Origin: an uncultured Candidatus Saccharibacteria bacterium
GTDB taxonomy: Bacteria; Patescibacteriota; Minisyncoccia; Phycocordibacterales; UBA9973
Reading direction: 5' to 3'
Length of the DNA: 64,000 bases
Assembly: GCA_964596395.1 (NCBI GenBank)
Contig: CAZQSY010000004.1
Coordinates: 9,008-73,007 of the forward strand
The notes below the pieces were generated by a model, which saw only the letters and a list, made by a program, of their open reading frames with translations, had not been told where the DNA came from and ran no database searches. The translations under genes and the position numbers were made by a program. Positions 3,791 to 30,906 of the stretch are shown here, in pieces (positions within the stretch are counted from its first letter, which is position 1; every line of letters starts with the position of its first letter).

Positions 3791-3834
3791 AAACACAGGG
3801 TAGTCCTGTGTATACACAGGACTACCCTGTGTTT
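3791..3834. repeat. Family-E nested palindrome, intergenic copy between AI-2E transporter gene and cysS
   Basis: aaacacagggtagtcctgtgta|tacacaggactaccctgtgttt: perfect 22-bp inverted arms, each arm itself palindromic. Confidence 0.7.
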
Positions 3835-22371: not shown

Positions 22372-23139
22372 ATGAAAATGATCGTTCAAAATTTGGCCAC
22401 GGAATACGAAGATGAGGGGGAGGGAAAAACCTTGCTTTTTTTGCACGGATGGCAAAGCAATCTGCACACTTTCGACCCCTTAGTGAATTCCTTGAGGGAT
22501 TCACTAGAGAAAACGCACAGGTTCGTGCGCCTTGATTTGCCGGGTTTTGGCGGGAGCGAAAGGCCGAGGGAGGATTGGGACTTGGACAAATATGTCTATT
22601 TCGTTTCTGATTTTGTAAAAAAAATGAATCTAGATGTATACGCGCTAGTCGGGCACTCGATGGGCGGACGGATAATTATAAAAGGCGTTTCGGAAAATAT
22701 TTTGAAAACCGAGAAAATAGTGCTAATTTCTTCAGCCGGCATCGCCAAGAGGAAAACTTTCCGCAACCGTTTATTAAAGTTTCTGGCGAAAACCGGCCGG
22801 ATGGTCACGTGCATTCCGCCGTTTTATTTCTGGCGGGAGGGATTGCGCCGAAAAATGTACCAAAAAATCGGAAGTCGAGATTACCTTTCTGCCGGCGCCA
22901 TGCGGGGGACTTTCGTTCGGGTAATAAACGAAGATCTTTCTATAAACGCCCAAAAAGTTAATTCTCCGGCGCTGCTTGTCTGGGGCGAGAATGACACAGA
23001 AACGCCCCTTTCTGATGGAATGCGGCTCTCAAAAATGATTGCCGGTTCGGAGCTTAATGTTTTAAAAGGTTGCGGACATTTCGTGCATGAAGAAAAAGCA
23101 CAAGAGGTGGGAGATATCGTGGAAAAATTCTTATGTTAA
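22372..23139 (+). CDS. Alpha/beta hydrolase fold protein
   Basis: LLFLHGWQSN and nucleophile elbow GHSMGG. -10 TATAAT upstream at ~22353. Confidence 0.75.
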   Translation: MKMIVQNLATEYEDEGEGKTLLFLHGWQSNLHTFDPLVNSLRDSLEKTHRFVRLDLPGFGGSERPREDWDLDKYVYFVSDFVKKMNLDVYALVGHSMGGRIIIKGVSENILKTEKIVLISSAGIAKRKTFRNRLLKFLAKTGRMVTCIPPFYFWREGLRRKMYQKIGSRDYLSAGAMRGTFVRVINEDLSINAQKVNSPALLVWGENDTETPLSDGMRLSKMIAGSELNVLKGCGHFVHEEKAQEVGDIVEKFLC

Positions 23140-25835: not shown

Positions 25836-25994
25836 ATGTCCCAAGAACGACTCATAAAACTTGCCTGCGGGCTCTGTAAGCGCATAAATTACTGGTCAAG
25901 CAAGAACAAAAAGACCGTTACCGCGAAAGTTGAGCTCAACAAGTACTGCAAATGGTGTAAGAAGAAGACCAAGCATAAAGAAATCAAGAAATAA
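25836..25994 (+). CDS. rpmG: 50S ribosomal protein L33
   Basis: 52-aa ORF MSQERLIKLACGLCKRINYW...CKWCKK with the two CxxC pairs of the L33 zinc ribbon. Absent from the ORF track because it is shorter than 60 aa. Confidence 0.8.
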   Translation: MSQERLIKLACGLCKRINYWSSKNKKTVTAKVELNKYCKWCKKKTKHKEIKK

Positions 25995-26177
25995 CCTGTT
26001 TCTTTTGCCTCTTTTTTGTGCTATATATAAAGCGCAGCCGAGACCGGTTGCGGGTTCTTTTAGTTCGGAATTTCTTTGCTTAAGTGGAAATTCCGTCAGG
26101 CGCGATTTCTTTTTCGTTTTTGCGCCTGTATGTTTCCGCCCGCGTTTTGATACCGGTTTAAAGTGTGGGCGGAGCAT

Positions 26178-26276
26178 GGGCCTATTGTTCTGTGGTAGAA
26201 TAGCGGTCTCCACCCCGTCGCTCGCGAGCGACAGGGTCCAAGACCGTTGCCGGAAGTTCGATTCCTCCACGGCCCA
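26178..26276 (+). pseudogene. Degenerate tRNA-Trp-like sequence with a 24-nt hairpin inserted in the anticodon loop, directly abutting the GIY-YIG ORF start
   Basis: D-arm gttc/tgtggta/gaat, anticodon stem gcggt + loop ctcca(hairpin ccccgtcgctcgcgagcgacaggg)..accgt, T-arm ggaag-TTCGATT-cctcc. Acceptor pairs only 5/7. Ends 2 nt before the ATG at 26279. Confidence 0.5.
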
Positions 26277-26278
26277 CA

Positions 26279-26538
26279 TGTTTTATGTTTACGTTTTGAA
26301 GAGTAAGAAAGACAATAAGCTGTATTTCGGGTATACTGCTGACCTGAAAAAACGTTTATCTGAACACAAGAGAGGGAACGTAGAAAATACTAGCCATAGA
26401 TTGCCCGTTGAGCTTGTTTATTACGAATCTTATAGAAATATAGATGATGCGAAGGAGCGGGAAAAGAGTTTCAAAAATAGCGGTTCTGTGTATAATGGAT
26501 TGGTAAAAAGAATTAAGAGAAGTATGATGGGAGCTTAG
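26279..26538 (+). CDS. Small GIY-YIG nuclease (COG2827/UPF0213-type URI-domain protein)
   Basis: MFYVYVLKS...KLYFGYTADLKKRLSEHKRG matches the GIY-YIG core. Paralogous to 44802..45059. The TAG stop lies inside the 5' end of tRNA-Trp. Confidence 0.75.
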
Positions 26539-26602
26539 TTAAGTGGTATAACTGCGGTCTCCAAAACCGCGGTCAAGGGTCCGATTCCCTTAGCTCCCGC
26601 CA
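26529..26602 (+). tRNA. tRNA-Trp (anticodon CCA), CCA encoded
   Basis: Acceptor gggagct/agctccc, D-arm gtta-agtggta-taac, anticodon stem gcggt/accgc with loop cTCCAaa, T-arm aaggg/ccctt, discriminator g then cca. Overlaps the last 10 nt of the GIY-YIG ORF. Confidence 0.8.
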
Positions 26603-26710: not shown

Positions 26711-27202
26711 ATGCATGACAGGGTTTTAAATTCAAGGGGGAATTCAGGTTTCTGGAATGTTAATTCCAATGAATTATACGACGCCGCAAAAATTCTTTGG
26801 AATTGTTGGACAATGAACAACCCAATGACAGCAAAAAATCCACTGAGAAAGAAAATAGGAGAAAAAATTCATCGATTTCATTGGATAACTATGATGCTAC
26901 TGAGCTTGAGTTTGGAAACTCTCTTAAAAGGAAAAATTATAAAAAATGAACCTCTTTTAATAACAGACAAAAAATTTCCTCTAGAAACCCATAATCTTGT
27001 TTTTTTATTTAAAAAGGCAGACATTATTTTTAATGATGATGAAGAATTATTTTTAAAACGACTCACGAATTCAGTAGAATGGATAGGAAAATATCCAATA
27101 CCAAATAAATCAGAAAGTTTTAATTCAAACAACACAACTAGGAGAGAGGAAGATTTCAATCTTTTTGAAGAGTTAAGACAAAGAATTCAAAAAAGCCACT
27201 GA
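26711..27202 (+). CDS. Hypothetical protein (AT-rich, possibly foreign)
   Basis: 163-aa ORF with much lower GC than its neighbours and no recognisable motif. Confidence 0.35.
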   Translation: MHDRVLNSRGNSGFWNVNSNELYDAAKILWNCWTMNNPMTAKNPLRKKIGEKIHRFHWITMMLLSLSLETLLKGKIIKNEPLLITDKKFPLETHNLVFLFKKADIIFNDDEELFLKRLTNSVEWIGKYPIPNKSESFNSNNTTRREEDFNLFEELRQRIQKSH

Positions 27203-28045
27203 TTTACTGGCATCCAGCCACCTTATTTCCTTGTCCCTTTTGAACCAGGTCATTTGGCGCTTGGCGTATTTAAGAGTTTCGGCGATTACTTTCTCAGGCG
27301 TGGGGAAGTAGTATTCAAAACCGAGTTCTTTCAATCTTTTGTCAGAAACGCCAAATTTTTTTAATTTTTGAATTTCTTTGATTAGTCCTTGCCGGAACAT
27401 TTTTGCTACTCTTTTTTCTACTCGTTTTTTCAAAATATCCTTCGGTAGAAAAAGACCTATTTTAACAAATGTTATTTTTTCTGCTATAGCAGAACTTATA
27501 ACATATCTTGTTTTCGGTACCTTACCTAACGTTTGAGCGATTTCTATGGCGCGGATAAGGCGAACCTTATTGTTTTGTTCGTTTTTATTTTTTATATCTT
27601 GTGCTCTTTTTGCATCTAGTTCCCGCAGTACGGCAAAAAGCACGTCTGCGGATTTCGCTAGTAGTTTTTTGCGCAAAGCCGGGTCTGGCTTTACTTCGGG
27701 GAAGACAGTTCCTTTGGTAATCGCGTCTATATAAAAACCCGTGCCTCCGCAGATTATCGGCGTTTTGCCTCTTTTTAAAATATCAGTCATAGCACCCATT
27801 GCAAGTTTTTGGTATTGGGCTGCCGTAAACCTCCTTTTCGGATTTGCCACGTCAATCAGGTGATGGGGGACATTCCGCATTTCTTTCTTAGTGATTTTCC
27901 CTGTGCCTATGTCTAACCCTCTGTACACCTGTCTTGAATCTGCAGAAACTATCTCGCCGTTTATTTTTTTAGCTAGCTTAACCGCCAGGTCGCTTTTACC
28001 CGTGACTGTTTGGCCTAAAATCACTATAACTTTCCGTTTTTTCAT
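27173..28045 (-). CDS. miaA: tRNA dimethylallyltransferase
   Basis: P-loop GQTVTGKS, ADSRQVYRGLDIGTGK motif. Confidence 0.85.
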   Translation of the reverse strand: MKKRKVIVILGQTVTGKSDLAVKLAKKINGEIVSADSRQVYRGLDIGTGKITKKEMRNVPHHLIDVANPKRRFTAAQYQKLAMGAMTDILKRGKTPIICGGTGFYIDAITKGTVFPEVKPDPALRKKLLAKSADVLFAVLRELDAKRAQDIKNKNEQNNKVRLIRAIEIAQTLGKVPKTRYVISSAIAEKITFVKIGLFLPKDILKKRVEKRVAKMFRQGLIKEIQKLKKFGVSDKRLKELGFEYYFPTPEKVIAETLKYAKRQMTWFKRDKEIRWLDASKSVAFLNSLS

Positions 28046-29556
28046 TTTAGCACTTTTATATCCGCCCCGATGGAATTCAGGCGTTCGGCGATTTCTTCGT
28101 ACCCGCGTTTGATCATATACACGTTGCGTAAGATGGAGGTGCCTTCAGCAGCAAGCATGGCAATAAGGATCGCCGCTGCCGGGCGCAGGGCGGGCGGGCA
28201 GACGACCTGCGCCGCTTTTAACTTTGTCCCTCCTTGGATATACAGCCGGTGTGGGTCTGCTAGTGTAACGTTTGCCCCTAGTCGATTCAGTTCAGCCATA
28301 TATATGGCCCGATTTTCGTACGTCCAGTCGTGAATCATCGTCTGGCCTTCAGCTTTAACCGCTATCGGTGTAAAGAAAGGCAAGTTGTCCATATTAATGC
28401 CCGGGTAGGGGTTGGGGTGAATTTTATCAGCCAAAGCTTTTAATTTGCTCGGCAATATTTCAATATCAACCAGTTTGGTTCGGCCGTTTTGCGAAAAATA
28501 TTTTTTAGAGACCTTATACTTCAAACCCATTCTTTTCATTTTTTCAAGTTCAAGTGAAAGAAAGTCAATCGGGCAGCGAGTGATATTCAGTTTTGATTCA
28601 GTGACAACCCCGGCGGTGATAAACATCATAGACTCTATTGGGTCTTCGCTGTTCCAGTATTCCACGTTTTTATTTATTTCTTTTATTCCGTGCACGACTA
28701 GTGTAGAAGTGCCGATGCCGTCTATTTTGACCCCCATGCTTTCAAGGAAAAAACACGTTTCTTGGACCATATAATTCGCGCTGGCGAAACTGATAGTCGT
28801 CTCACCGGGGACCAAAGCGGCGGCAATCAGGGTGTTTTCGGTGGCGGTGTCGCCCGATTCGTACATTACGATTTCCGCCGGTTTTAGTTTTTTAGCATCT
28901 ATTTCGTAAGTGGTAGGGGTGACTTTTATTTTTACCCCGAGGTCTTTCAAGGCGTATGTGTGGCCGGCCACGGTTCTTTTACCCAAAGTGCACCCTTGCG
29001 AATGAGGTATGCTGAAACGAGATACTCGATGTATGAGCGGGCCCATCAGCATCAAAATAGATCTAGTTCTCGAAGAAGAGCCGATGTTTATGTTTTTCAG
29101 GTTAAATTCTCTCGGGGTTTCCATCTTCAAGGAATTTTTTCCCACCCACTTTATAGATACGCCGATGCTCTCGAAGATCTCTATCATCCTGTCTACTTCT
29201 TCTATACGGGCGATGTTGTGAAGCACGGTGGTTCCCTTGTTCAGAAGGGAGGCGCAGAGTATGCCCATTGAGCCGTTTTTGGAAAAATTCGTTTTGATTG
29301 TGCCGTGAAGTTTCTTGCCGCCTTTGATTTCAAAGTCAATAGAGTCGTTGATGCAGACAACCTTATGGTCTAGCACTTCGCTTATTTTTGAAAGGATTTC
29401 GGTGCTGAAATTTTGTTCGCCGGCTTCCATGCGGGCCACGGCGCTCTGTGAAGTCGCGAGCGCTTTAGCGAACTCGGCTTGCGTAAGGTCGCGCTTTTCC
29501 CGTAAATTTTTGATAAAATCGCCAATCTGCTTTTGTTGTGTGTTATTTTTTTGCAT
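28042..29556 (-). CDS. murA: UDP-N-acetylglucosamine 1-carboxyvinyltransferase fused to an N-terminal XRE-family helix-turn-helix domain
   Basis: N-terminal ~65 aa IKNLREKRDLTQAEFAKALATSQSAVARME (XRE HTH). The remainder has the EPSP-synthase/MurA fold with a MurA-like C-terminus ...AAILIAMLAAEGTSILRNVYMIKRGYEEIAERLNSIGADI. Confidence 0.7.
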   Translation of the reverse strand: MQKNNTQQKQIGDFIKNLREKRDLTQAEFAKALATSQSAVARMEAGEQNFSTEILSKISEVLDHKVVCINDSIDFEIKGGKKLHGTIKTNFSKNGSMGILCASLLNKGTTVLHNIARIEEVDRMIEIFESIGVSIKWVGKNSLKMETPREFNLKNINIGSSSRTRSILMLMGPLIHRVSRFSIPHSQGCTLGKRTVAGHTYALKDLGVKIKVTPTTYEIDAKKLKPAEIVMYESGDTATENTLIAAALVPGETTISFASANYMVQETCFFLESMGVKIDGIGTSTLVVHGIKEINKNVEYWNSEDPIESMMFITAGVVTESKLNITRCPIDFLSLELEKMKRMGLKYKVSKKYFSQNGRTKLVDIEILPSKLKALADKIHPNPYPGINMDNLPFFTPIAVKAEGQTMIHDWTYENRAIYMAELNRLGANVTLADPHRLYIQGGTKLKAAQVVCPPALRPAAAILIAMLAAEGTSILRNVYMIKRGYEEIAERLNSIGADIKVLK

Positions 29557-29565
29557 TCAAAAATA

Positions 29566-29585
29566 ATATATCATATGTGATATAT
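29566..29585. promoter_or_regulatory. Palindromic operator-like site ATATATCA-N4-TGATATAT immediately upstream of the HTH-murA start
   Basis: Perfect 8-bp inverted arms located 10-30 nt upstream of the minus-strand ATG (29556). Confidence 0.35.
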
Positions 29586-29618
29586 CTGCAAGCAAAGGGT
29601 GTGGATAAAATTTTTGTG

Positions 29619-29690
29619 TGCGCCTGCGGGGAATCGAACCCTGATTACAAGTTCCGGAAACTTGCGTTCTATCCGTTGAACTACAGGCGC
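29619..29690 (-). tRNA. tRNA-Arg (anticodon CCG)
   Basis: Minus-strand cloverleaf: acceptor gcgcctg/caggcgc, D-arm gttc-aacggat-agaac, anticodon stem caagt/acttg with loop ttCCGga, T-loop TTCGATT. Confidence 0.8.
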
Positions 29691-29699
29691 GTTAAATTT

Positions 29700-29784
29700 T
29701 GGTGCCGGAGGAGAGAATCGAACTCTCATGAGTTGCCTCGCACGATTTTGAGTCGTGTGCGTCTACCAATTCCGCCACTCCGGC
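29700..29784 (-). tRNA. tRNA-Leu (anticodon CAA), long variable arm, CCA encoded
   Basis: Minus-strand: acceptor gccggag/ctccggc, D-loop with GG, anticodon loop ctCAAaa, ~15-nt variable arm, T-loop TTCGATT, terminal acca. Confidence 0.8.
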
Positions 29785-29871
29785 ATCTAAAATATACTTG
29801 CGGCGAATCAACAAGATATTAACTTAATTCTTAACTTTACGCAATTTCGGTTCTTGTGTTAAAATCAGCGC

Positions 29872-30906
29872 ATGTCTAACCTGTATTCCAACTCAATTTT
29901 TTGGATTGATACCGAGAAAATAAAGCCAAACCCGTACCAGCCCCGGCGGGATTTTGACGAGACACGCTTGCAAGATTTGGCCGACTCTATAAGGCAATAC
30001 GGCGTGCTGCAGCCGCTTACCGTATCCCGCACCGAGATAGTGAAAGAAGACGGCGGGCTTACCACCGAATACGAACTTATTGCCGGTGAACGCCGCCTGC
30101 GCGCGGCCAAGCTGGCCGGCGTGTCGCAGGTGCCGGTCATCATCCGCGAAGGTGACACTTCAATGATGAAGCTGGAGCTGGCGATTATCGAGAATTTGCA
30201 GCGCGAGGACCTGAACGTGGTTGACCGCGCGCGCGCTTTCTTTCAGCTGGTGAACGAATTCAGATTTACCCACGCCGAAGTTGCAAAAAAAATGGGCCGA
30301 AGCCGAGAATATGTCTCGAACACTTTGCGCATACTCTTCTTGCCCGACGAAATTCTGAAGGCCCTCTCGGAAGGAAAAATTTCGGAAGGCCACACTCGGC
30401 CGCTTCTCATGCTTGTCGACCATCCCGAAGAGCAGATGGTGCTTTTTAAAGAAATTATTTACAAGAAACTTACCGTGCGGGAAGCCGAAAGAAACGCGCG
30501 GCGAATTGCCTACGACCGCGTGCGCAAGAAAGAATTTATGCCCGACCCCGAAATAACCGAACTGGAAGAAGAATTTCAAGACAAGCTCGGCACGCGGGTG
30601 CATATAGACCGAAGCGAGACCGGCGGACAGATTAAAATTGATTTCTTTTCGACCGAAGACCTGCGGGCGATTCTAGAGCTTATGAATAAGCCCGATATCG
30701 AGAGAAACCCCAACAATTTGCTAGAAAAGCATATCGCGAAAATAGAAGGAGGGGAAGAGCCGGCTAATCTTTCCCAAAACATTAGCTCTGCCCCAAACCA
30801 AGAAGAAAAACCTGCCGGCAATGCTTCGCAAAGCGATGCGGGAGTGAAAGAGGAAACAGCCCCAGACGAAAGCAAACTTTACGATATTTCTAATTTTAGT
30901 ATTTAA
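29872..30906 (+). CDS. parB: Chromosome partitioning protein ParB/Spo0J
   Basis: ParB box LIAGERRLRAAKLAG and HTH; acidic, low-complexity C-terminal tail. Confidence 0.85.
   Translation: MSNLYSNSIFWIDTEKIKPNPYQPRRDFDETRLQDLADSIRQYGVLQPLTVSRTEIVKEDGGLTTEYELIAGERRLRAAKLAGVSQVPVIIREGDTSMMKLELAIIENLQREDLNVVDRARAFFQLVNEFRFTHAEVAKKMGRSREYVSNTLRILFLPDEILKALSEGKISEGHTRPLLMLVDHPEEQMVLFKEIIYKKLTVREAERNARRIAYDRVRKKEFMPDPEITELEEEFQDKLGTRVHIDRSETGGQIKIDFFSTEDLRAILELMNKPDIERNPNNLLEKHIAKIEGGEEPANLSQNISSAPNQEEKPAGNASQSDAGVKEETAPDESKLYDISNFSI

What the first reader, a model, noticed from the sequence alone, without database searches (positions are those of the whole stretch)
28042..29585. MurA is fused to an N-terminal XRE-type HTH, with a perfect palindrome at its own start
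A complete MurA (enolpyruvyl transferase) carries a ~65-aa XRE-family helix-turn-helix domain at its N-terminus. The palindrome ATATATCA-N4-TGATATAT sits directly upstream of its start codon.

This suggests an enzyme that also binds DNA and autoregulates the first committed step of peptidoglycan synthesis. I am not aware of a characterised HTH-MurA fusion.
Basis: partly seen in the sequence, partly recalled or inferred. Interest (0 to 1): 0.6.

Follow-up and report, generated by a model that had tools for sequence, protein, structure and literature searches.

The report
Self-regulating MurA enzyme with DNA-binding head
The cell-wall enzyme MurA is here genuinely fused to a DNA-binding domain, and a near-invariant 16-base palindrome in its own promoter follows that domain across two phyla, so the enzyme very probably switches off its own gene (and often murB); nobody has studied this.

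Summary
Both observations hold. Window 28042-29556 (minus strand) is one 504-aa ORF with Pfam HTH_3 (aa 15-63) and a complete MurA domain (aa 72-504). The palindrome ATATATCA-N4-TGATATAT lies at 29566-29585, 9 nt before the ATG.

It is not a gene-calling artefact. More than 120 protein clusters and 20 reference-genome loci carry the same single ORF.

In all 27 fused loci checked across CPR bacteria, and in 3 cultured Nonomuraea (70% GC), the core ATATCA-N4-TGATAT occurs upstream of the fused gene or its operon. In the 20 reference loci and the window it occurs exactly once. It usually fills the 17-bp spacer between a -35 and a -10 box. All 15 close relatives that lack the HTH (62-78% identical MurA, same tRNA-murA-miaA synteny) lack it.

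In 10 loci murB starts on the other side of the palindrome. In distant members the fused copy has lost the MurA catalytic residues and sits beside a canonical murA-murB and Mur-ligase genes.

Best reading: an operator-binding autorepressor that is also the enzyme, a trigger-enzyme-like family controlling early peptidoglycan genes. DNA binding, enzyme activity and ligand control are inferred, not shown. The architecture is in databases but I found no paper on it.

The parts
28042..29556 (-). HTH-MurA ORF, 504 aa plus stop codon
   Evidence: ORF list. Pfam and NCBIfam domains. An identical protein, P0001, is in public data, and about 500-aa homologues all have both domains.
29368..29514 (-). XRE-type helix-turn-helix domain (aa 15-63). 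The recognition helix is about aa 37-44, TSQSAVARME.
   Evidence: Pfam HTH_3. The AF2 model has helices at 7-21, 26-32, 37-44 and 52-62. Q37, S38, R42, E44, Q48 and N49 are invariant in nearly all fused representatives. The closest solved HTHs are PezA 2p5t and ClgR 5woq.
29344..29367 (-). Short flexible linker (aa 64-71) between the HTH and MurA
   Evidence: In the AF2 model, aa 63-71 are coil. pLDDT is below 50 at aa 67-70, and the first MurA strand starts at aa 72.
28045..29343 (-). MurA (enolpyruvyl transferase) domain, aa 72-504, with catalytic residues retained
   Evidence: It aligns with PDB MurA structures over aa 75-502. Foldseek against 5u4h, 1naw and 1uae gives TM-scores normalised to the target length of 0.90-0.91. 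The E. coli residues map as K22=K93, N23=N94, R91=R165, C115=C189, R120=R194, D305=D390, R371=R458 and R397=R484. All are invariant in 48 homologues. D369 is Ala456.
29568..29583 (.). Conserved 16-bp operator core ATATCA-N4-TGATAT.
   Evidence: It is unique in the window. It is conserved in 26 aligned loci, with C5, A6, A8, T9 and G12 invariant. There are 19 hits at up to 1 mismatch in 348 kb, against 1.65 expected from Markov shuffles, and all lie upstream of fused genes.
29586..29591 (-). -35-like hexamer TTGCAG (TTGCAA or TTGACA in other loci), 17 bp upstream of the -10 box
   Evidence: Position-matched alignment of 26 operator regions. The window copy is weak (3 of 6), and the promoter scan tool did not call it.
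29563..29570 (-). -10 region (TATATT/TATTAT, preceded by TG) overlapping the right operator half-site. It ends 6-8 nt before the ATG, which predicts a leaderless mRNA.
   Evidence: Sequence. The consensus TATAAT sits at operator positions 16-21. Only 5 of 41 long ORFs in the window have a Shine-Dalgarno-like motif, and many have TGnTATAAT 6-10 nt before the ATG.
29618..29784 (-). tRNA-Arg(CCG) and tRNA-Leu(CAA) directly upstream on the same strand. They form the conserved synteny anchor.
   Evidence: ARAGORN. In unfused orthologues the tRNA-Leu abuts the murA start codon.
27173..28045 (-). Downstream miaA-like gene. Its start overlaps the murA stop by 4 nt, so it is probably co-transcribed.
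   Evidence: ORF list. The murA-miaA adjacency is conserved in fused and unfused loci. The miaA assignment rests on reading the sequence and on tblastn conservation, not on a family search.

Best explanation
The gene encodes a bifunctional protein: a catalytically competent MurA whose N-terminal XRE-type HTH binds, presumably as a dimer, the 16-bp palindrome ATATCA-N4-TGATAT.

That palindrome occupies the spacer of the gene's own promoter and overlaps the -10 box. The half-site centres are 10 bp apart. A bound protein would exclude RNA polymerase, so the cellular amount of MurA would set transcription of murA directly. In this window that covers the leaderless murA-miaA unit. In many relatives it also covers the divergent murB, or an adjacent canonical murA-murB and Mur-ligase operon.

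What is shown here:
- the fusion;
- the intact catalytic residues;
- the operator's conservation, position and strict co-occurrence with the HTH.

What is inferred:
- DNA binding;
- repression rather than activation;
- dimerisation;
- enzyme activity.

A further, less certain step is that the substrate- or product-induced closure of the two-lobed MurA clamp (UDP-GlcNAc with PEP, or UDP-MurNAc) modulates operator binding. That would make it a true trigger enzyme or metabolite sensor.
For: Fusion:
- It is a single ORF here and in 20 species-representative loci.
- All top 120 homologues carry PF01381 plus PF00275.
- About 100 of the best 150 representatives at 50% identity span the HTH-MurA junction.

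Link between operator and HTH:
- The core motif occurs exactly once, upstream, in 20 of 20 fused loci plus the window. It occurs in 0 of 15 unfused loci.
- There are 19 hits at up to 1 mismatch, against 1.65 expected by chance.
- The same palindrome lies upstream of 7 distant fused genes at 29-48% identity. These include 3 Nonomuraea genomes of 70% GC.
- L004 and Nonomuraea carry the symmetric double change ATCTCA..TGAGAT.
- In a metagenome scan for the 19-mer, 26 of 120 hits abut an HTH-MurA gene. Nine more lie 100-520 nt from stand-alone XRE genes with a similar recognition helix.

Loss pattern:
- Unfused MurAs nest inside the fused family (100% bootstrap).
- Fused L001 groups with unfused L025 and L028 (100% bootstrap).
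- The HTH and the operator therefore disappeared together more than once.

Geometry:
- The layout is -35 TTGCAA, a 17-bp spacer containing the operator, then -10 TATAAT.
- The ATG follows the operator by 10-14 nt in 13 of 26 loci.

Regulon hints:
- murB starts 9-13 nt from the other edge of the palindrome in 6 loci and is divergent in 10. murG is divergent in L038.
- Dead fused paralogues sit between a canonical murA-murB and Mur-ligase or Ddl genes.

Enzyme:
- K22, N23, R91, C115, R120, D305, R371 and R397 equivalents are invariant.
- HTH-less orthologues at the same syntenic site are 76-78% identical and can only be enzymes.
Against: - There is no experimental evidence of binding, repression or catalysis.
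- The window's -35 is weak, and the promoter scanner did not call the site.
- The right half-site TGATAT coincides with an extended -10 element (TGnTAT), so part of the conservation is due to the promoter.
- The palindrome is not exclusive to this family. About 85 of 120 metagenome hits have no HTH-MurA nearby.
- MurA enzymes are generally described as monomers (my own knowledge), so how the dimer forms is unknown.
- The score is below the strict TIGR01072 equivalog cutoff (319 against 392.7), and D369 is Ala.
- Only 64 kb of the genome was seen, so a second, canonical murA cannot be excluded.
Confidence: 0.75

Rival explanations
1. In this genome the fused protein is only a regulator: a MurA-derived sensor domain on an XRE HTH. 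The housekeeping MurA would be a canonical, unfused gene elsewhere in the genome.
For: This arrangement exists in distant members. L041, L043 and L044 have a canonical murA (27-28% identical to the window protein) next to the fused gene. About 7 of 20 classifiable fused representatives are catalytically degenerate. Only 64 kb of this genome is visible.
Against: - All eight catalytic and binding residues checked are invariant in this clade, whereas they decay where a canonical copy is present.
- HTH-less orthologues at 76-78% identity sit in the same tRNA-murA-miaA position and can only be enzymes.
- In the loci where murB is divergent, the canonical murA that sits between murB and the operator in L041 and L044 is absent.
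- No canonical murA is found in the window or in any of 38 flanks.
Confidence: 0.13
2. The palindrome is only a promoter feature: two back-to-back extended -10 boxes (TGATATAAT) of a bidirectional promoter. The HTH would do something else, or bind elsewhere.
For: - TGATAT plus AT matches the extended -10 element used by many genes in this window.
- In 10 loci a divergent murB could use the left half as its own -10.
- Unfused loci lack any promoter at this position, so the absence of the palindrome there could simply follow from that.
Against: - The left half ATATCA is invariant where no divergent gene exists. This applies to the window, L003-L005 and L010. It also applies to Nonomuraea and L042, where the palindrome lies at the end of a co-oriented upstream gene.
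- An AT-rich palindrome persists in 70% GC genomes.
- The central bases A8 and T9 are invariant, and a spacer sequence is not normally conserved.
- The same palindrome recurs next to unrelated XRE genes with similar recognition helices.
Confidence: 0.08
3. The fusion is an artefact: a frameshift, a misassembly, or a wrong start codon that joins a small XRE gene to murA.
For: None found. Small XRE genes with the same operator do exist on their own elsewhere.
Against: - The single ORF is found in independent assemblies from many studies. These include complete genomes of cultured Nonomuraea (CP045572.1) and RefSeq WP_ entries.
- No internal Met is available to start MurA separately.
- The linker is conserved.
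Confidence: 0.01

Closest known systems
Trigger enzymes, meaning bifunctional enzyme-repressors: E. coli BirA (biotin ligase and bio repressor), PutA (proline dehydrogenase with an N-terminal ribbon-helix-helix domain) and NadR. This comparison rests on my own knowledge.
   Same: One polypeptide carries a metabolic enzyme and an N-terminal DNA-binding domain. The operator overlaps the promoter of the pathway's own genes.
   Different: The enzyme (MurA, EPSP-synthase fold), the DNA-binding domain (XRE HTH_3) and the pathway (peptidoglycan) all differ. Ligand-dependent binding is demonstrated for BirA and PutA but is untested here.
BzdR of Azoarcus: an XRE HTH fused to a shikimate-kinase-like sensor domain. 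This rests on my own knowledge. NCBIfam PRK08154 gave a weak hit through the HTH only.
   Same: It has an N-terminal XRE HTH joined by a linker to an enzyme-derived domain that serves as the ligand sensor. This is the best analogue for the catalytically degenerate family members (P0144, P0172, P0173).
   Different: The sensor fold is different. The window protein keeps its catalytic residues, so it is probably still an enzyme. There is no sequence relationship outside the HTH.
Canonical MurA (E. coli 1uae, E. cloacae 1naw, and others) and its known controls. Those controls are UDP-MurNAc feedback, and ReoM/ReoY-ClpCP proteolysis in Firmicutes (my own knowledge).
   Same: It has the same fold (TM-score normalised to target length 0.90-0.91). 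It has the same Cys115 loop and the same PEP and UDP-GlcNAc binding residues.
   Different: - It is only 25-30% identical.
- It forms a separate clade with 100% bootstrap.
- It carries the family signature C-PPALRP, with D369 replaced by Ala.
- It has an N-terminal HTH, and no solved MurA has one.
- Its control would be transcriptional.
XRE-type antitoxins and repressors: PezA (2p5t), HigA-like antitoxins and ClgR (5woq).
   Same: These are the closest solved HTHs. HigB/HigA-like pairs in metagenomes carry the identical palindrome between their -35 and -10 boxes. Autorepression through a palindrome in the promoter is the norm for this class.
   Different: There is no toxin partner here, because the neighbours are tRNAs and miaA. 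The C-terminal partner is a 430-aa enzyme instead of a small dimerisation or toxin-binding domain.

Membership tests
MurA (UDP-N-acetylglucosamine 1-carboxyvinyltransferase) | Two-lobed EPSP-synthase/MurA fold covering the whole domain | tested here: met
   Pfam PF00275 covers aa 78-493 and profile positions 2-417 of 417. The AF2 model (pLDDT 85) matches MurA structures with TM-scores normalised to target length of 0.85-0.91.
MurA (UDP-N-acetylglucosamine 1-carboxyvinyltransferase) | Curated family score thresholds | tested here: inconclusive
   The subfamily model NF006873 scores 328 bits against a cutoff of 297, so it passes. The equivalog models fail: TIGR01072 scores 319 against 392.7, and NF009470 scores 221 against 552.
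MurA (UDP-N-acetylglucosamine 1-carboxyvinyltransferase) | Catalytic and binding residues K22, N23, R91, C115 (or Asp), R120, D305, R371 and R397 (E. coli numbering) | tested here: met
   The equivalents K93, N94, R165, C189, R194, D390, R458 and R484 are all present and invariant in 48 homologues. D369 is Ala456 throughout the family. I do not know what that implies.
MurA (UDP-N-acetylglucosamine 1-carboxyvinyltransferase) | Enolpyruvyl transfer from PEP to UDP-GlcNAc; sole or essential MurA of the cell | not testable with these tools
   This needs an enzyme assay or complementation, and the complete genome. No other murA is present in the 64-kb window.
XRE / Cro-C1 HTH_3 DNA-binding domain | Sequence match above the Pfam gathering score, and a helical bundle with a recognition helix | tested here: met
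   PF01381 scores 51.6 bits against a cutoff of 23. The model has four helices, at 7-21, 26-32, 37-44 and 52-62.
XRE / Cro-C1 HTH_3 DNA-binding domain | Sequence-specific binding to a palindromic operator | not testable with these tools
   Only comparative support is available. The palindrome and the HTH co-occur in 27 of 27 fused loci and in 0 of 15 unfused loci.
Trigger enzyme (bifunctional enzyme and transcription factor) | Catalytic domain and DNA-binding domain in one polypeptide, with an operator at the promoter of its own pathway genes | tested here: met
   Domains. The operator lies in the promoter spacer of murA, and is shared with murB, murG or Mur-ligase operons in relatives.
Trigger enzyme (bifunctional enzyme and transcription factor) | DNA binding switched by the enzyme's substrate or product state | not testable with these tools
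   This requires EMSA with and without UDP-GlcNAc, PEP, UDP-MurNAc and fosfomycin.
Type II toxin-antitoxin XRE antitoxin (HigA / PezA-like) | Adjacent cognate toxin gene in the same operon | tested here: not met
   The neighbours are tRNA-Arg and tRNA-Leu upstream and miaA downstream. Similarity to PezA and Y4mF is limited to the HTH.

The most novel reading that the evidence does not exclude
HTH-MurA proteins would be a previously unrecognised one-component feedback system for cell-wall precursor synthesis.

- The substrate- or product-induced closure of the MurA clamp (UDP-GlcNAc with PEP, or the UDP-MurNAc 'dormant' complex) would gate binding of the fused HTH to a universal 16-bp operator.
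- Precursor status would thereby be coupled directly to transcription of murA, murB and the Mur-ligase operons.
- The family would show the whole path from bifunctional enzyme-repressor (Nomurabacteria, Nonomuraea), to pseudoenzyme sensor (where a canonical murA is present), to plain enzyme (where the HTH and operator are lost).
- It would have moved between Patescibacteria and Actinomycetota.
Probability: 0.35. Interest if true: 0.82.

Novelty: new variant of a known kind. Interest (0 to 1): 0.68.

Why it matters
- MurA catalyses the first committed step of peptidoglycan synthesis and is the target of fosfomycin. Its known controls are feedback inhibition and regulated proteolysis. I know of no dedicated transcription factor for murA, and of no MurA that is itself one, and I found none in the literature searched.
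- A protein that measures its own abundance, and perhaps its ligand state, at its own promoter would be a minimal homeostat. That fits the tiny, regulator-poor genomes of CPR bacteria.
- The same protein-operator pair exists in cultured Nonomuraea, so the idea can be tested directly. Possible tests are EMSA, reporter fusions, and the effect of fosfomycin or UDP-sugars.
- The family also offers a natural series for studying how enzymes turn into ligand-sensing regulators: active enzyme-repressor, dead sensor paralogue, and HTH-less enzyme.

Tried and rejected
- **Frameshift or gene-calling artefact.** Rejected. The single ORF is found in all fused loci and in complete genomes.
- **Internal start for a separate MurA.** Rejected. 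There is no Met between residues 43 and 97.
- **Promoter scanner on 29450-29900.** It did not call a promoter at the palindrome, because the window's -35 matches only 3 of 6. The promoter assignment rests instead on the 26-locus alignment.
- **Second murA, murB or murG in the window.** tblastn found none. This cannot settle the matter for the whole genome.
- **The look-up of encoding contigs for the window protein itself.** It is not on record.
- **Biopython bootstrap.** It timed out (one search was a script error). I replaced it with a numpy Kimura-distance NJ bootstrap. This is NJ only, and several inner nodes are weak (33-50%).
- **Literature.** Six full-text searches found no paper on an HTH-MurA protein. 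The only mention is HTH_3 listed as an EPSPS-associated Pfam domain in PMC9394408.
- **Covariation between recognition-helix variants (SAVARME or SSIPRME) and operator variants (TGATAT or TGAGAT).** No clean correlation was seen by eye. I did not pursue it.
- **Exclusivity of the operator.** Rejected. Most metagenome hits of the 19-mer are not next to HTH-MurA.
- **Homodimer modelling.** Not possible, because the structure tool predicts monomers only.
Full report
**1. Observation**

The minus-strand ORF at 28042-29556 encodes 504 aa. A TGA lies in frame directly before its ATG.

Domain searches give the following.
- Pfam finds HTH_3 at aa 15-63 (E 1e-13) and EPSP_synthase at aa 78-493, covering the whole 417-position profile (E 1e-44).
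- NCBIfam places it in the MurA subfamily model NF006873 at 328 bits, above the cutoff of 297.
- It scores below the strict equivalog TIGR01072, at 319 against 392.7.

The palindrome ATATATCA-TATG-TGATATAT is at 29566-29585, 9 nt from the start codon. It is unique in the window at up to 2 mismatches, with 0.02 expected by chance. tRNA-Arg and tRNA-Leu lie immediately upstream on the same strand. A miaA-like gene overlaps the murA stop codon by 4 nt.

**2. Not an artefact, and not rare**

- All 120 best homologues in the 5.8-billion-protein collection are about 500-510 aa with both Pfam domains. They are 74-84% identical and come mostly from Paceibacteria and Nomurabacteria (CPR) MAGs. Their annotations are 'UDP-N-acetylglucosamine 1-carboxyvinyltransferase' or 'Transcriptional regulator, XRE family'.
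- Of 38 loci from species-representative genomes, 20 show the fusion as one uninterrupted ORF.
- I searched the 50%-identity representative library with aa 1-150. About 100 of the best 150 hits span the HTH-MurA junction, at identities down to 34-40%.
- One such cluster has 246 members and belongs to cultured Nonomuraea (Actinomycetota). It includes RefSeq entries such as WP_214634277.1 and a copy in the complete genome CP045572.1.
- No solved structure has this architecture. All PDB matches start at query residue 74-80.
- Six literature searches found no study of such a protein. One paper only lists HTH_3 among the Pfam domains that co-occur with the EPSP-synthase domain.

**3. The enzyme part**

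I aligned the protein to E. coli MurA (1uae). The equivalents of K22, N23, R91, C115, R120, D305, R371 and R397 are K93, N94, R165, C189, R194, D390, R458 and R484. All are invariant in 48 homologues. D369 is replaced by Ala within a family-specific C-PPALRP motif.

The AF2 model has a mean pLDDT of 85. It shows a four-helix HTH (helices at 7-21, 26-32, 37-44 and 52-62). An unstructured linker spans aa 63-71, with pLDDT below 50 at 67-70. A MurA fold starts at aa 72. That fold superposes on MurA crystal structures with TM-scores, normalised to the target length, of up to 0.91.

**4. The palindrome is a conserved operator tied to the HTH**

Occurrence:
- I scanned 348 kb (36 loci plus the window) for ATATCA-N4-TGATAT at up to 1 mismatch.
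- Each fused locus has exactly one hit, always upstream of the fused gene or its operon, at -27 to -606.
- L004 carries the symmetric two-change variant ATCTCA..TGAGAT.
- The 15 unfused loci have none.
- First-order Markov shuffles give 1.65 hits on average, against 19 observed.

Conservation and geometry, from an alignment of 26 operator regions:
- Positions 1, 2, 5, 6, 8, 9, 12, 15 and 16 are invariant.
- A -35 box (TTGCAA, TTGACA or TTGATA) sits at -7 to -2.
- The operator fills the 17-bp spacer.
- A -10 box (TATAAT) sits at positions 16-21.
- The ATG follows the operator by 10-14 nt in 13 of 26 loci. That is the geometry of a leaderless mRNA.

This fits the genome. Only 5 of 41 long ORFs in the window have a Shine-Dalgarno-like motif, and many have TGnTATAAT 6-10 nt before the ATG. 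A protein bound at this site would occlude RNA polymerase, which argues for repression.

Distant members. The same palindrome precedes fused genes whose proteins are only 29-48% identical.
- L043: abuts the ATG.
- L044: TTGACA-aat-ATATCATATATGATAT-taaat.
- L045, L041 and L042: present directly upstream.
- L040: lies ahead of a NUDIX / NTP-transferase / HTH-murA operon.
- Three Nonomuraea genomes of 70% GC: ATCTCATATGTGAGAT survives about 13 nt before the start codon, at the end of a co-oriented upstream gene.

The HTH residues Q37, S38, R42, E44, Q48 and N49 are likewise invariant across the family.

Metagenome scan. I ran an independent scan for the 19-mer TTATATCATATATGATATA.
- 26 hits abut an HTH-MurA gene.
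- 9 lie near stand-alone XRE genes. Several of these are gp49/HigB-like plus HigA-like pairs with a related recognition helix and the same -35/operator/-10 layout.
- About 30 belong to a longer unrelated repeat.
- The rest are miscellaneous AT-rich sites.

The palindrome is therefore strongly enriched at HTH-MurA genes but is not exclusive to them.

**5. Loss of the HTH goes with loss of the operator**

Fifteen close relatives encode a MurA of about 440 aa without the HTH. Their MurA parts are 62-78% identical to the window protein. They lie in the same tRNA-Leu-murA-miaA synteny as the window gene. The tRNA abuts the start codon, leaving no room for a promoter.

A bootstrapped NJ tree of the MurA domains gives these supports.

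| Grouping | Bootstrap |
|---|---|
| All unfused proteins inside the HTH-MurA family, separate from canonical MurA | 100% |
| Fused L001 with unfused L025 and L028 | 100% |
| Mixed inner clade of fused and unfused members | 92% |

The simplest reading is one old gain followed by repeated joint losses of the HTH and the operator. The tree is NJ only, and some inner nodes are weak (33-50%).

**6. Regulon hints and dead paralogues**

- In 10 Nomurabacteria-type loci murB is transcribed divergently (Pfam MurB_C plus FAD_binding_4).
- In 6 of these the murB start codon lies 9-13 nt from the left edge of the palindrome. This mirrors the murA geometry.
- In L038 the divergent gene is murG.
- In L001 and L002 an extra gene has been inserted between the operator and HTH-murA. 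The operator stays with the promoter.
- In L041, L043 and L044 the fused gene faces a canonical, unfused murA, which is only 27-28% identical. In L041 and L044 that murA is followed by murB. In L043 it lies beyond a Mur-ligase gene and a small unknown gene, and no murB is seen in the part held.
- In all three loci the fused gene is followed by overlapping Mur-ligase or Ddl genes.
- In those three loci the fused paralogue has lost the Cys115 loop, R120 and R397, and in two of them K22 as well (alignment A2).
- Among the representatives that could be classified, 13 are active-like and about 7 are degenerate.

The part conserved across the whole family is therefore the HTH-operator pair. The MurA domain is either a working enzyme or a derived, presumably ligand-binding, module.

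**7. Is the window protein an enzyme?**

Arguments for:
- Its catalytic residues are intact, whereas they decay in lineages that hold a canonical copy.
- HTH-less orthologues at the same locus can only be enzymes.
- No canonical murA lies in the window or in any flank.

Argument against certainty: only 64 kb of the genome is visible.

**8. Mechanism**

Most likely (about 0.75): the protein binds the palindrome as a dimer through its HTH domains and represses its own leaderless promoter. The cell thereby holds MurA, and in relatives MurB and other Mur enzymes, at a set level.

Possible but untested (about 0.35-0.4): MurA's ligand-driven clamp closure modulates DNA binding, which would make it a true trigger enzyme.

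Rivals:
- A regulator-only role, with a canonical MurA elsewhere in the genome (0.13).
- A palindrome that is merely a bidirectional extended -10 promoter (0.08). This is contradicted by the invariant left half where no divergent gene exists, and by its persistence in GC-rich Nonomuraea.
- An artefact (0.01).

**9. Comparison with known systems and novelty**

The protein works like the trigger enzymes BirA, PutA and NadR. Its degenerate relatives resemble BzdR, an XRE HTH joined to an enzyme-derived sensor. These comparisons rest on my own knowledge. The enzyme, the HTH type and the pathway all differ from those cases. I know of no transcription factor dedicated to murA, and of no DNA-binding MurA.

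I rate it a new variant of a known kind. The sequences are in databases under automatic names, but the function, the operator and the family structure appear undescribed. Interest is 0.68.

Noticed in passing
window, whole 64 kb (e.g. upstream of ORF starts at 22372, 24598, 29872, 39448, 61102, 6669, 32381, 4844): Only 5 of 41 ORFs of at least 200 aa have a Shine-Dalgarno-like motif. Many have an extended -10 (TGnTATAAT-like) ending 6-10 nt before the ATG. Leaderless mRNAs therefore seem to be the rule in this organism.
   Followed up: partly
L050 923, L110 966, L118 1812, L127 3828, L089 288, L066 3573, L128 4068: The identical palindrome ATATCATATATGATAT sits between consensus -35 and -10 boxes upstream of gp49/HigB-like plus XRE (HigA-like) gene pairs, or of stand-alone XRE genes. 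Their recognition helices are related (QSNISRxESG). The HTH of HTH-MurA may therefore derive from such an autoregulated module.
   Followed up: partly
L049, L051, L061, L068, L071, L076, L078-L080, L086, L104-L107, L112, L115, L120, L129, L131, L134, L145, L148, L151, L154, L157: A longer perfect palindrome, TTCCCATT-ATATCATATATGATAT-AATGGGAA, recurs in contigs of GC 0.42-0.51. It occurs more than once in the same large contigs (BNJS01003752.1, BNJV01000335.1). In L049, L105 and L121 it precedes a small gene followed by an XRE gene. I could not explain it; it may be a repeated extragenic palindrome or an operator family.
   Followed up: no
L039 4595-5605, L166 5632-6657, L167 5700-6713: In three Nonomuraea genomes the HTH-MurA gene lies between a formyltransferase/enoyl-CoA-hydratase fusion gene and a phage-type integrase gene. 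Its protein is 48% identical to the CPR protein. This hints at horizontal transfer between Patescibacteria and Actinomycetota.
   Followed up: no
L167 4001-4070: The called start of the N. rubra protein (532 aa) lies upstream of the operator. The conserved start (VADDYLV) and the palindrome both fall inside the annotated ORF, so this start is probably mis-annotated.
   Followed up: partly
L015 about 3806-3834 and L017 about 227-320: The operator is flanked by a larger inverted repeat (ctaacgggacaagta ... tacttgtcccgtag). In these loci, and in L013, the HTH-murA start lies 110-150 nt downstream of the operator instead of about 12 nt. This suggests an insertion or a structured leader.
   Followed up: no
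L001 3406-3984 and L002 2292-2867: An unrelated gene is inserted between the operator and promoter and HTH-murA. It is a histidine phosphatase in L001 and an AAA_33 kinase-like gene in L002. Each has thus been recruited under the same operator.
   Followed up: partly
window protein aa 453-459 (CPPALRP); alignments A1 and A2: The whole HTH-MurA family, including its HTH-less descendants, replaces E. coli MurA D369 with Ala. It also has an insertion around aa 355-372 relative to canonical MurA. The functional meaning is unknown.
   Followed up: no
P0127 (1002 aa), P0167 (703 aa), P0189 (1923 aa), P0216, P0235: The representative search returned long proteins with 7-11 tandem copies of a similar XRE HTH. 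This is an unusual multi-HTH repeat architecture, unrelated to MurA.
   Followed up: no
window 25930-26538 (+), next to tRNA-Trp at 26529-26602: The C-terminal part of this ORF (MFYVYVLKSKKDNKLYFGYTADLKKRLSEHK...) reads like a GIY-YIG nuclease-type domain, and it abuts a tRNA gene. I judged this by eye only and ran no family search.
   Followed up: no
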